Below, one piece after another: positions 36,001 to 39,000 of a stretch of DNA of 64,000 nucleotides; positions within the stretch are counted from its first letter, which is position 1; each line of letters begins with the position of its first letter. This stretch comes from Carcharhinus amblyrhynchos (taxonomy: Eukaryota), in assembly GCA_965287045.1 (NCBI GenBank), contig OZ336873.1:45570001-45634000 (forward strand), read 5' to 3'. Position numbers: made by a program.

Positions 36001-39000
36001 AGGGCCTGCTGTTCATTCTTTAATTTAAATTGTAATTAACTTCAGGGAAGAGAAAAGCCAACTCCTGTTTTCTTTAAAATTGGTTCATGGGATGTGGGCA
36101 TCAGTGGCTAGGCAAGCATTTATTGCCCATCCATTATTGCCTTCAAGAATGTGATACAAAGAACAAAGAACAACCCAGCACGGGAAACAGGCCCTTCGGC
36201 TCAATGAGCCCGCGCTGCCGCATCACCCTACACCTATTCTACCCTGCGTGTCTACGAATGGAACCCCTAACTTAGCCAGATTCAGGGGAGAATAGTGTCA
36301 GTTTGGTAAAACCAATCAGCCTAAGAGCACATCTTTGGGGTGTGGGAGGAAACCTACACAACCACAGGGAGAATGCACAAACTCCCACAGACACAGGCCC
36401 AAATCCATGCATCTGCACAGCTAGCAGTGCTAGTCACCGAGCCGTTGTGGCACCCGTCTACTGGTCCAGGATCAAGCACACACACCGACACGAAGTACTA
36501 GGCCACTCCCGGAACCTCCAAGAGCAGCCCATGCACGACCCACCGTGTGCATGCCCCTCGTTTGACACGAGGTGGACCTCCACCTGCGGAATAAAAAGAC
36601 AAAAAGGTCAATCTTACAAGTCTGCTTTTCCGGTGTCTCCCAAGGTTCTAGCCTTATTTAATAGCCCCTACCATAACCCTCCATCCTCGTTTCACTCATG
36701 TGTCTATCTAACTGAACCTTAAACGAGTCCAATGTTCCTGCCTCCACCACCCTACTCGGTAGCGCGTTCCATACCCCCACAACTCTCTGCGTAAAGAACC
36801 TTCCTCTCACTTCCAAATTATACCTCTCCCCCCTCACCCTAATAGTGAGCAGTCTTACTGAACTACGGCAGACTGTGGTGTAGGTACACCCACATTGCTG
36901 TTAGGGAGGGAGTTCCAAGATTTTGACGGAGCAACAATGAAGAAAGTGATATATTTTCAAGTCAGGGTGATATCTGGCTTGGAGGGAAACTTGCAGGTGT
37001 CGGCGTTCCCATCTGTCTGCTGCCTTTATTATTCTAGATGGTAGAAGTTGCAAGCTTGGAAGATTCTATCAAAGGAGTTTTGCTCCAAGAGAGTAGACAC
37101 TATAAGCACACTGTATTGCTAGTGGCAGGAATGAATGTTGAAGGTAATCGATGCGGTGCTAAATCAAGCAGGCTGCTTTGTTCTGGATGGCGTCAAGCTT
37201 CTTCACCCAGGCAAGTGGACAGCATTCCATCACACTCCTAACTTCTGCCTTTTACAATATGGACAATGCTAATTTTGCAATTTGGTGCAATGTGAGGAAA
37301 AGTTGGAAATCCAGAAAAATGATATCCCAGACTTATGATTTTAAATGTTTATTAAGAAATAAAATAAACAATAAAAGTAAACTAGTTCATTTAACCAAGG
37401 CAATGGCCATACACAGTATCGCTACTGTAAACAGTTTCAAACAAACTTAACTCAATTAGTTATCCCCCCGTTGTCCCACAACAGTTACCACACCAGGCAG
37501 TTACGTCTCTCTGGGGTTGCTTTGAAGGTAAAACAAGTTGCTTTCACAGACACTTCTTGCTAGCAGCTAAACAGCTATTCCTGCTTTTGGCAGAGGTCTA
37601 AAACAGCTCCCTTCAATCATCGCATTAAATACTGTTTTTCTCTGACCTAACTTCTTCAGAATTCAGACATAATTACTTTCATTTTAGCAAAGTCTTCGCA
37701 TCTCACCTGGTCTTTTAGCCATAATTGCCAGCCAGCAACACCTGCTGGAAAGGTTGCACACATGAAGAGGTGTACACTCAACTGTGGTACCCCAAAGCAA
37801 TTAGTAAAATAGTCAGCATATATTTACCGTTCTCCCGCATCAAGAATTCTCACTTACATACAGAAATGAAAAACAAACTGCATTCTACTAGAATACCCCA
37901 CTAAATAATGGTTTACATATGATTTCATTTCATAGCAGTTGCTTGAAAGTAGTCTTCCCTCAACAAATCAACTGAAATAGGGGTGGGAAAAATAATCCCA
38001 AGAATTAAAAAAACTGGAACAGAACTAGTCAGAATTTGATGAAACTGAGAAAATCAAATAATTTAGACCCTCATTTATAAAGGGCAATAGTTTTCAGGAA
38101 TTCTGTTCTGGCAACAATACAATAACTACAAAGGTGAATGCAGGTTCCTTTCCAATGATTACAGCCATTTAAAAAGAGTCAGTGCATGCTAACTCCCAGC
38201 TATACAACACACAGAAAGAACCCCAGAAATGGCTAAGTGTTACTTTTAAAGTAGTTCCTGCCCCCCTTGATTCGAATTGTAAAATGACACGTACCAGAGC
38301 TGATAATGTAGGGCATCACATGCTTTAAGTGACAACTATTTAAAGCAAACTACGAACTGAAGCAGATTGAATCAAACTAATATCAACTGCCCGCAGAGAG
38401 CTGGCCCACTTAAAATCTGCTCAGTTCAAATTAGTTTTCAGTCCATGCAAGACAATTTGCTATATCTGCGGCAAATGATTTAAAAAAATAAAATTTACTT
38501 AATCTCTCGCACAGCAGAGATAGATGCAACAATGATTCCTCCTGATTCACCTTCATATGCACCTTTAATGCATCCATAGGCAAAATAAGAAGTACACTCA
38601 GCTGTGAGCAGCAAATGGATTTGTGCGAGTCCTACAGGACAGCCTGAGTTTGTAAGAGTGGAGGTAGATTTTGGATGTCACAGAGTCACTTCTGTAACCC
38701 AGTTTCCCTCTTTGAATCTACTGCTTAATAAAGATTGCCTGTAACCATCATTCACAACACCAGACAAAAACAGTTCCGCTAACAATATTTTGTCAGTATT
38801 CAGTCCATCAGGACATCAAATATCTCTCTTGTGAACCGGAATAAAGGGAATCTTTTACTGAACAAGATCATTTTACTAACAGAATCAGAAAATGCTACAA
38901 AATAATTTTGAAGTCCAGGCATGTCTTAGGCAATAGCGAATGCTAATTTTTCTCCCTAATGTTACTGAAATGCGATGATGACAAGACAGTTGTATTGCTT

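What the first reader, a model, noticed from the sequence alone, without database searches (positions are those of the whole stretch)
36157..36840. CR1 LINE that appears to have captured a whole V-SINE as its 3' end
Seen on the minus strand: an intact 60-codon CR1 ORF2 end, then about 200 bp of unique GC-rich sequence, then a V-SINE head and V domain (about 36455-36310), then a CR1-style terminal region and (TTCTTTG)n tail. The whole unit sits as one insertion inside an older LINE. The SINE part is heavily deleted relative to neighbouring V-SINEs, yet the unit is CpG-rich and the ORF is clean. Established: HE1 SINEs took their tails from CR1/HER1 LINEs. Inference: the reverse transaction, a LINE lineage that adopted a SINE 3' end long ago and stayed mobile.
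Basis: partly seen in the sequence, partly recalled or inferred. Interest (0 to 1): 0.65.

Follow-up and report, generated by a model that had tools for sequence, protein, structure and literature searches.

The report
CR1 fragment fused to a V-SINE
A young 684-base retrotransposon copy joins the end of a CR1 LINE gene to a worn-out V-SINE that supplies its only copying signal, but whether this is a propagating LINE lineage or a one-off fusion could not be tested here.

Summary
On the minus strand, 36840-36157 reads as follows:
- 60 clean codons of a CR1 ORF2 end, then a stop.
- About 200 nt found nowhere else in the window.
- A V-SINE that is collinear from about its third base through the V domain and body.
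- A canonical CR1 stem-loop and (TTCTTTG)2.6.

A paralogue of the older host repeat runs straight across the insertion point. The unit holds only one CR1 recognition tail, at its very end. That tail is of the subtype used by the CR1 copies closest to the unit's ORF. The SINE part lacks a box B, has lost 19 nt of the V domain, and is the most diverged V-SINE in the window. Yet the unit is CpG-rich (0.58 against 0.27).

The best reading is one retrocopy of one composite RNA whose SINE part was already old. This supports the SINE-to-LINE direction.

Whether a long-lived, still mobile family exists stays untested. No cartilaginous-fish genome was searchable, the window holds no second copy, and protein-library proxies found nothing across the junctions. 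A related CR1 ORF (93% identical) does exist elsewhere. Interest is moderate.

The parts
36841..37002 (-). Upstream flank: older host repeat, interrupted by the unit.
   Evidence: It aligns to the paralogue 22838-22639 together with the downstream flank. Frame 36855..36956 contains WNSLP.
36661..36840 (-). CR1 ORF2 C-terminal 60 codons. 5'-truncated, with no stop or frameshift.
   Evidence: 93% identity to P0001 over 100% of the query. Matches P0005 residues 878-934 only. CpG o/e 0.86.
36658..36660 (-). Stop codon TAA, at the same position as the end of P0001.
36586..36657 (-). AT-richer 72 nt after the stop. Origin unknown, and no canonical CR1 stem-loop.
   Evidence: No significant similarity to four other CR1 3' UTRs or to the unit's own tail (z -0.8 to 0.2). 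Fold no better than shuffles (z -0.21).
36456..36585 (-). 130-nt GC-rich block (GC 0.60, 7 CpG) with a strong RNA fold specific to the sense strand. The long hairpin is at 36555-36475.
   Evidence: Sense strand -65.4 kcal/mol, z -5.17, 0 of 200 shuffles as good. Antisense -36.3 kcal/mol, z -1.49. 34 pairs, 11 of them G.U. No Rfam match. No other copy in the window.
36403..36453 (-). V-SINE tRNA-like head. The box-A region is kept with changes and the box-B region is missing.
   Evidence: The nhmmer alignments start at model position 3-6. There is a 10-18-nt gap over the box-B region. ARAGORN finds no tRNA anywhere in the window.
36328..36402 (-). V domain, lacking one 19-nt unit of its internal direct repeat.
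   Evidence: BLAST hits to four neighbouring V-SINEs. Profile alignments. Both consensus CpG positions that are present read TG.
36218..36327 (-). SINE body downstream of the V domain, running into the tail.
   Evidence: Collinear with CR1-tailed V-SINEs up to model position 291 of 320, with a 21-nt insertion and low alignment confidence in the middle.
36176..36217 (-). Canonical CR1 3' stem-loop (9-bp stem). It is the only one in the unit. Loop motif at 36188-36202.
   Evidence: Folds. The motif recurs, with 1 to 3 mismatches, at four other CR1 3' ends (25544, 41241, 45923, 48219). Alignment A3. Similar to CR1 tails (z 9.8 and 13.0) and not to 5 V-SINE tails (z <= 2.7).
36157..36173 (-). (TTCTTTG)n terminal microsatellite, 2.6 copies.
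   Evidence: Tandem Repeats Finder: 36156-36173, period 7, 100% matches.
36112..36156 (-). Downstream flank: continuation of the host repeat. TAT at 36156-36154 repeats TAT at 36844-36842, a possible very short target-site duplication.
   Evidence: Three bases are not significant on their own.

Best explanation
The 684 bases are one 5'-truncated retrocopy of one composite RNA. Its source was a CR1 element, or a non-autonomous derivative of one. In that source, the region after the ORF2 stop codon held about 200 nt of non-canonical sequence (72 nt AT-rich, then a 130-nt structured GC-rich block). After that came a complete but promoter-dead V-SINE. The only stem-loop and microsatellite that the CR1 reverse transcriptase can recognise sits at the end of the SINE part.

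Mechanism (inferred):
- A V-SINE mobilised by the same CR1 clade, and so bearing a compatible tail, came to lie behind the stop codon of a CR1 copy. This happened either by insertion or by template switching, and it displaced the element's own tail.
- Transcripts ending at that tail are bound by the CR1 protein and copied by target-primed reverse transcription.
- The SINE's pol III promoter was no longer needed and decayed. The tail stayed intact because it is needed for copying.

Shown: the anatomy, the single tail, the single insertion, the decay of the SINE part, and the youth of the unit.

Inferred: that the source gave more than this one copy.
For: - One insertion: a paralogue of the host repeat spans the joined flanks.
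- One tail: the stem-loop motif occurs once in the unit, at 36188-36202. The post-stop 72 nt and the GC block resemble no CR1 3' UTR (z -0.8 to 1.4).
- All 10 other CR1 3' ends examined, of 11 found, carry their tail within roughly 40-130 nt of the ORF end. In the unit the distance is about 470 nt.
- The SINE homology is collinear from model position 3 to 291 of 320.
- The SINE part has no box B, and ARAGORN finds no tRNA.
- Its mean identity to the neighbouring copies is 63%, against 66-77% among those copies. It has 46 gapped columns, against 12-35.
- The unit's CpG o/e is 0.58, above the window's 95th percentile. The ORF scores 0.86 and the tail 0.97.
- Both V-domain CpG sites that are present read TG.
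- The tail subtype matches the CR1 copies nearest to the ORF (alignment A3).
- The CR1 ORF family exists outside the window: P0001 at 93%, P0035 and P0118 at 89%, P0008 at 80%.
Against: - No second copy of the junctions or of the spacer exists in 64 kb.
- A 148-codon antisense frame spanning both junctions found nothing in either protein library. The first search gave 7 candidates, none scoring. The second gave 0 hits among 1.84 billion representatives. Both are weak negatives, since such a frame need not have been called as a gene.
- Only 60 codons are visible, so autonomy of the source is not shown.
- The SINE part could belong to a divergent V-SINE subfamily not represented in the window. 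That would remove the 'aged inside a LINE' argument.
- The CpG argument for the V domain rests on 2 sites.
Confidence: 0.5

Rival explanations
1. One-off chimeric retrocopy. During a single target-primed reverse transcription, the CR1 enzyme started on an RNA ending in the V-SINE tail. It reached the SINE's 5' end and then switched template, once or twice, onto other RNA. The last template was CR1 mRNA just after its stop codon. There would be no progeny and no lineage.
For: - The SINE homology begins at model position 3-6, which is at the SINE's own 5' end. That is what a switch at the end of a template predicts.
- The junctions are single-copy in the window.
- Template switching by CR1 reverse transcriptase has been proposed for bird SINEs (PMC5729268, passages read).
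- U6/L1-type chimeras are well known (bioRxiv 10.1101/2025.02.02.635956, passages read).
Against: - The SINE part has no box B and is the most diverged V-SINE in the window, while the unit is young. It does not look like an active pol III SINE transcript.
- About 200 nt of unrelated sequence lies between the CR1 stop codon and the SINE head. This needs either a second switch or an unusually long native CR1 3' UTR.
- The tail is of the ORF's own CR1 subtype.
Confidence: 0.28
2. Two ordinary insertions in succession at one spot. Either a 5'-truncated CR1 copy inserted first and a SINE-like element with a 130-nt 5' extension then landed in or at its tail, or the two arrived in the reverse order.
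For: - The post-stop stretch ends in two 8-nt T-rich units with one mismatch (read, about 36602-36587). This could be a relic microsatellite.
- TAT occurs at all three junctions.
- From memory: elements with microsatellite tails often insert into existing tails.
Against: - A CR1 copy made by target-primed reverse transcription must carry its own stem-loop tail. None lies between the stop and the SINE head, although all 10 other CR1 3' ends examined have one.
- Tandem Repeats Finder does not report the T-rich units.
- A later insertion would have to fall within a few bases of the edge of the earlier one.
- The second element would have no working pol III promoter.
Confidence: 0.12
3. The 3' 430 nt is a separate composite SINE family of the kind seen in AmnSINE1. 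It would have a new head (the GC block), a partial dead tRNA head, a V domain and a CR1 tail. The CR1 ORF piece in front of it would be an unrelated neighbour or a transduced flank.
For: - The GC block folds strongly and only on the sense strand, as a small-RNA-derived head might.
- Composite SINEs with a new head added to a partial tRNA head are described (PMC4824008, passages read).
Against: - No Rfam family matches the block at E <= 10.
- No other copy of the block lies in a window that holds 11 other V-SINE loci.
- This does not explain the tail-less CR1 piece joined upstream within the same insertion.
Confidence: 0.07

Closest known systems
HE1 V-SINE and its partner LINE HER1 of sharks and rays (Ogiwara et al. 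1999, 2002). Seen only as a table row and references in PMC3747384 and in the introduction of PMC4824008. The original papers are not held.
   Same: A tRNA-type head, a V domain and a tail shared with a CR1-type LINE. The unit's 3' 265 nt is collinear with such SINEs in the window.
   Different: In HE1 the flow is LINE tail to SINE. Here a whole SINE lies behind a LINE's stop codon within one insertion, and its promoter is dead.
MER6/MER6A: a V-SINE body and tail carried and spread by a Mariner-derived MITE (PMC6887750, passages read).
   Same: A V-SINE that lost its head function and is propagated as a passenger of another mobile element.
   Different: The carrier there is a DNA transposon and the SINE tail has no role. 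Here the carrier is a CR1 retrotransposon and the tail at the end of the SINE part is the only copying signal.
Ingi-3_AC LINE containing a Ceph-SINE/RTE-like stretch (Kojima 2018, PMC5786205, passages read).
   Same: A LINE consensus that holds SINE-like sequence, ascribed to LINE-SINE recombination.
   Different: That stretch is about 70 nt in the 5' UTR of a family consensus. Here a whole SINE sits at the 3' end and only one copy is known.
L1 3' transduction and U6/L1-type template-switch chimeras (recalled; background in bioRxiv 10.1101/2025.02.02.635956).
   Same: Foreign sequence joined to a LINE in one retrotransposition event.
   Different: Classical 3' transduction keeps the LINE's own 3' end upstream of the extra sequence, and here it is absent. 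In U6/L1 chimeras the LINE is the 3' partner, and here it is the 5' partner.

Membership tests
CR1-clade LINE (3' fragment) | Conserved ORF2 C-terminal region | tested here: met
   60 aa match ten window CR1 C-termini at E <= 1e-3 and one more at E 0.002. 93% to P0001. 65% to P0005, which carries precomputed RT and endonuclease Pfam domains.
CR1-clade LINE (3' fragment) | 3' stem-loop followed by a short microsatellite | tested here: met
   Stem-loop at 36176-36217. 7-nt repeat x2.6. Aligns with four CR1 tails.
CR1-clade LINE (3' fragment) | Endonuclease and reverse-transcriptase domains in this copy | tested here: not met
   Only P0005 residues 878-934 are matched. The copy is 5'-truncated, as most LINE copies are.
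V-SINE superfamily (HE1 type) | V domain | tested here: met
   Profile hits at E 9.9e-11 and 49.7 bits. 19 nt of the domain's internal repeat is missing.
V-SINE superfamily (HE1 type) | tRNA-derived head with working box A and box B | tested here: not met
   The head segment aligns but the box-B region is gapped and box A is altered by eye against the recalled consensus. ARAGORN finds no tRNA and Rfam gives no tRNA hit.
V-SINE superfamily (HE1 type) | LINE-derived 3' tail | tested here: met
   Collinear to model position 291 of 320. However, the subtype is that of CR1 copies and not of the 5 V-SINE tails compared.
V-SINE superfamily (HE1 type) | Stands alone as a short element between its own flanks | tested here: not met
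   It is joined upstream to the spacer and the CR1 ORF end inside one insertion.
   No cartilaginous-fish genome could be searched. In the window there is no further copy. Protein-library proxies found nothing.
   Related ORF pieces exist (P0001, P0035, P0118, P0008) but their DNA and 3' UTRs cannot be read.
Classical 3' transduction | The LINE's own 3' end is retained upstream of the extra sequence | tested here: not met
   No stem-loop motif or CR1 3' UTR similarity lies between the stop and the SINE head.
Template-switch chimeric retrocopy | Junction at the exact 5' end of the first-copied RNA, which is an abundant transcript | tested here: inconclusive
   SINE homology starts at model position 3-6. 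But the SINE part lacks a pol III promoter, and 200 nt of unknown sequence intervenes.

The most novel reading that the evidence does not exclude
An autonomous CR1 lineage of a cartilaginous fish lost its own 3' UTR and has since propagated with two borrowed parts as its 3' end: a structured 130-nt GC-rich RNA element and a captured V-SINE. The SINE-LINE parasitism would then have run backwards. LINEs could act as a reservoir in which the V domain survives and from which new V-SINEs could be reborn.
Probability: 0.3. Interest if true: 0.65.

Novelty: new variant of a known kind. Interest (0 to 1): 0.4.

Why it matters
SINEs are known to borrow LINE tails. A LINE that depends on a tail delivered by a SINE would show that modules move both ways. 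It would also offer one route by which the V domain has lasted so long, namely as a passenger in LINE 3' UTRs. And it would give a natural test case for what a stringent CR1 reverse transcriptase needs at the 3' end of its template. If the unit is a one-off chimera, it is only one more example of template switching or nested insertion in a genome that is a quarter to a third CR1-group elements (PMC13343379, passages read).

Tried and rejected
- 5S rRNA or another small-RNA origin of the GC block. By eye it recalled 5S rRNA. cmscan against Rfam gave no 5S, tRNA or other relevant hit at E <= 10, on 1.2 kb and on 266 nt. The only hits were DUF805b at E 0.27 outside the unit and Six3os1 at E 3.5. 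Rejected as unsupported.
- The spacer as a decayed copy of upstream CR1 coding sequence. tblastn of 7 CR1 proteins against the unit gave only weak matches in the spacer and SINE body (E 0.13 and above in an 801-nt target). Rejected.
- The post-stop 72 nt as an ordinary CR1 3' UTR. Local alignment against four other CR1 3' UTRs and the unit's own tail scored no better than shuffles (z -0.8 to 0.2).
- A loose tail-motif scan at up to 4 mismatches was not specific: 10 hits against 3-11 in 20 shuffles. Only the hits with 3 or fewer mismatches were used.
- Protein libraries as a stand-in for a genome search. The antisense 148-codon frame across both junctions gave no hit. None of the 12 close relatives of P0001 that I fetched reads through its stop into a 3' UTR.
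- Scan of bacterial and archaeal genome contigs with P0001. It returned 7 small contigs carrying CR1 ORF ends at 46-59% identity. All have short 3' UTRs and none matches the V-SINE profile. They are too distant to help.
- Literature.
  - I read passages of PMC5786205, PMC6887750, PMC3747384, PMC5729268, PMC13343379, PMC4824008 and 10.1101/2025.02.02.635956.
  - Six full-text searches turned up no CR1 or other LINE family described with a whole V-SINE as its 3' end. The phrase search returned only noise.
  - Ogiwara et al. 2002 is not held.
Consensus sequences of elasmobranch CR1 families in the supplements of PMC13343379 could bear on the claim.

Full report
**Setting.**
- The window has no N, GC 0.41 and CpG observed/expected 0.28.
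- It is packed with CR1 fragments and V-SINEs, with 11 V-SINE loci besides the unit.
- The best-named relatives of its CR1 proteins come from rays and a skate.
- The V-SINEs with CR1-type tails fit the HE1/HER1 pair listed for sharks and rays (table in PMC3747384).
- I therefore take the window to be from a cartilaginous fish. This is an inference.

**Anatomy (minus strand).**
- The CR1 frame gives 60 codons (36840-36661) and TAA.
  - They match ten other CR1 C-termini in the window at E <= 1e-3 and an eleventh at E 0.002.
  - They match an outside protein, P0001, at 93% over their whole length, ending at the same residue.
  - A 936-aa CR1 ORF2 (P0005) matches only with its residues 878-934. 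The copy is 5'-truncated.
- After the stop come 202 nt with no other copy in the window. They fall into two parts.
  - The first is a 72-nt AT-richer stretch that folds no better than shuffles (z -0.21).
  - The second is a 130-nt block of GC 0.60.
    - On the sense strand it folds to -65.4 kcal/mol (z -5.17, 0 of 200 shuffles). On the antisense strand it reaches only -36.3 kcal/mol (z -1.49).
    - Its long hairpin (36555-36475) has 34 pairs, of which 11 are G.U. That explains the strand asymmetry and points to an RNA-level structure.
- Then comes the SINE.
  - A profile of 8 neighbouring copies hits 36448-36297 (E 9.9e-11).
  - A profile of the 6 CR1-tailed copies aligns 36448-36184 in one piece, model positions 3-291 of 320 (49.7 bits).
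  - The gaps fall over the box-B region (10-18 nt, depending on the aligner) and over one 19-nt unit of the V domain's internal repeat.
- The unit ends in a 9-bp stem-loop (36176-36217) and (TTCTTTG)2.6.

**One insertion.** The two flanks, joined, align to a paralogue of the same repeat at 22838-22639 across the junction (72% over 211 columns). A TAT on each side could be a minimal target duplication, but it proves nothing.

**One tail.**
- I found 11 other CR1 C-termini and examined the 3' ends of 10 of them. The one at 23004-22900 was not examined.
- All 10 carry stem-loop and microsatellite within roughly 40-130 nt of the ORF end.
- In the unit that distance is about 470 nt.
- Nothing between the stop and the SINE head resembles a CR1 3' UTR (z -0.8 to 1.4) or carries the loop motif.
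- A CR1 copy made by target-primed reverse transcription must start at such a tail (established for stringent LINEs; PMC3747384). The CR1 piece therefore did not arrive alone.
- This weighs against two independent insertions and against classical 3' transduction.

**Whose tail?**
- The last 125 nt resemble the tails of CR1 copies c25617 and c48177 (z 9.8 and 13.0). They do not resemble the tails of the 5 CR1-tailed V-SINEs compared (z -0.0 to 2.7).
- The loop motif recurs, with 1 to 3 mismatches, only at four CR1 ends: 25544, 41241, 45923 and 48219 (alignment A3).
- Those are the copies whose peptides are nearest to the unit's (52-56%).
- So the tail is of the ORF's own clade. Either the captured SINE belonged to a subfamily served by that clade, or the SINE core sits just upstream of the LINE's own tail. 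The collinear alignment cannot separate these.

**Age.**
- CpG observed/expected is 0.58 for the unit, above the window's 95th percentile of 0.53. By part it is 0.86 in the ORF, 0.66 in the spacer and 0.97 in the tail. There is no CpG at all in the 143 nt of V domain and body.
- The neighbours' consensus has few CpGs there. The two that fall in retained sequence both read TG in the unit. That is only two sites.
- The SINE part is the most diverged V-SINE in the window. Its mean identity to the others is 63%, against 66-77% among them. It has 46 gapped columns, against 12-35.
- A young insertion with an old-looking, promoter-less SINE part means the SINE was already worn in the template RNA.
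- That fits long residence in a pol II-transcribed carrier. It equally fits a divergent SINE subfamily absent from the window.

**What could not be done.** Three stand-ins were tried.
- A 148-codon antisense frame covering both junctions gave nothing in either protein library.
- None of the 12 relatives of P0001 that I fetched reads into a 3' UTR.
- A scan of bacterial genome contigs gave only 7 distant contaminant CR1 pieces with short UTRs.

The CR1 ORF family itself is multi-copy outside the window: P0001 at 93%, P0035 and P0118 at 89%, P0008 at 80%.

**Verdict.**
- The best reading, at 0.5, is a retrocopy of a composite CR1-SINE source element.
- A one-off template-switch chimera stands at 0.28.
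- Two successive insertions stand at 0.12.
- A separate composite SINE with the GC block as a new head stands at 0.07.

**Known parallels** (passages read in each case):
- MER6, where a Mariner MITE spreads a headless V-SINE (PMC6887750).
- Ingi-3_AC, a LINE with a Ceph-SINE-like stretch in its 5' UTR (PMC5786205).
- Template switching by CR1 enzymes (PMC5729268).

My six literature searches found no LINE family described with a whole V-SINE as its 3' end. The library lacks most subscription journals, Repbase entries and supplements.

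Noticed in passing
window 36456-36585 (minus strand): The GC-rich part of the 'spacer' is a strongly structured RNA element specific to the sense strand (z -5.17 sense against -1.49 antisense). Its 34-pair hairpin has 11 G.U pairs. It has no Rfam match and no other copy in the window. Its origin is unknown.
   Followed up: partly
window 1450-1620(-), 9121-9291(-), 11389-11559(+), 20920-21091(+), 29271-29441(+), 40296-40379(-): Six copies of one CR1 family have nearly identical C-terminal peptides and (GTTCTTAT)n tails. 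The CpG-richest stretch of the window (about 27800-28700, o/e up to 0.76) overlaps the longest of them. This looks like a recently active family.
   Followed up: partly
window 60694-60744 and 61097-61358 (+): One V-SINE is split between model positions 58 and 59 by an insertion of about 350 nt. The 3' end of that insertion (61031-61089) belongs to the same repeat family as the host of the unit.
   Followed up: partly
window 59386-59446 (+): A (GT)n run of about 60 nt has grown inside a V-SINE, between its head and V domain.
   Followed up: no
window: 32480-32790, 54020-54335, 59335-59710, 61097-61358, 21761-21937 versus 875-1165, 14200-14490, 34440-34725, 49280-49595, 62230-62545: V-SINEs with two different 3' ends coexist. 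One group has a CR1-type stem-loop and (GATTCTAT)n. The other ends in an AATAAATAAA-type A/T-rich tail. This suggests two LINE partners.
   Followed up: no
loci L001-L007; protein P0004: Small contigs in assemblies named as Fredinandcohnia, Nocardia, Chitinophaga, Streptomyces and Aeromonas encode CR1 ORF2 ends. A protein named as a Proteus mirabilis reverse transcriptase also encodes one. This is most likely vertebrate DNA contaminating bacterial assemblies.
   Followed up: no
window 46200-47100: This is the second CpG-richest stretch of the window (o/e up to 0.71). It lies between two CR1 fragments and matched no CR1 protein. It was not examined.
   Followed up: no
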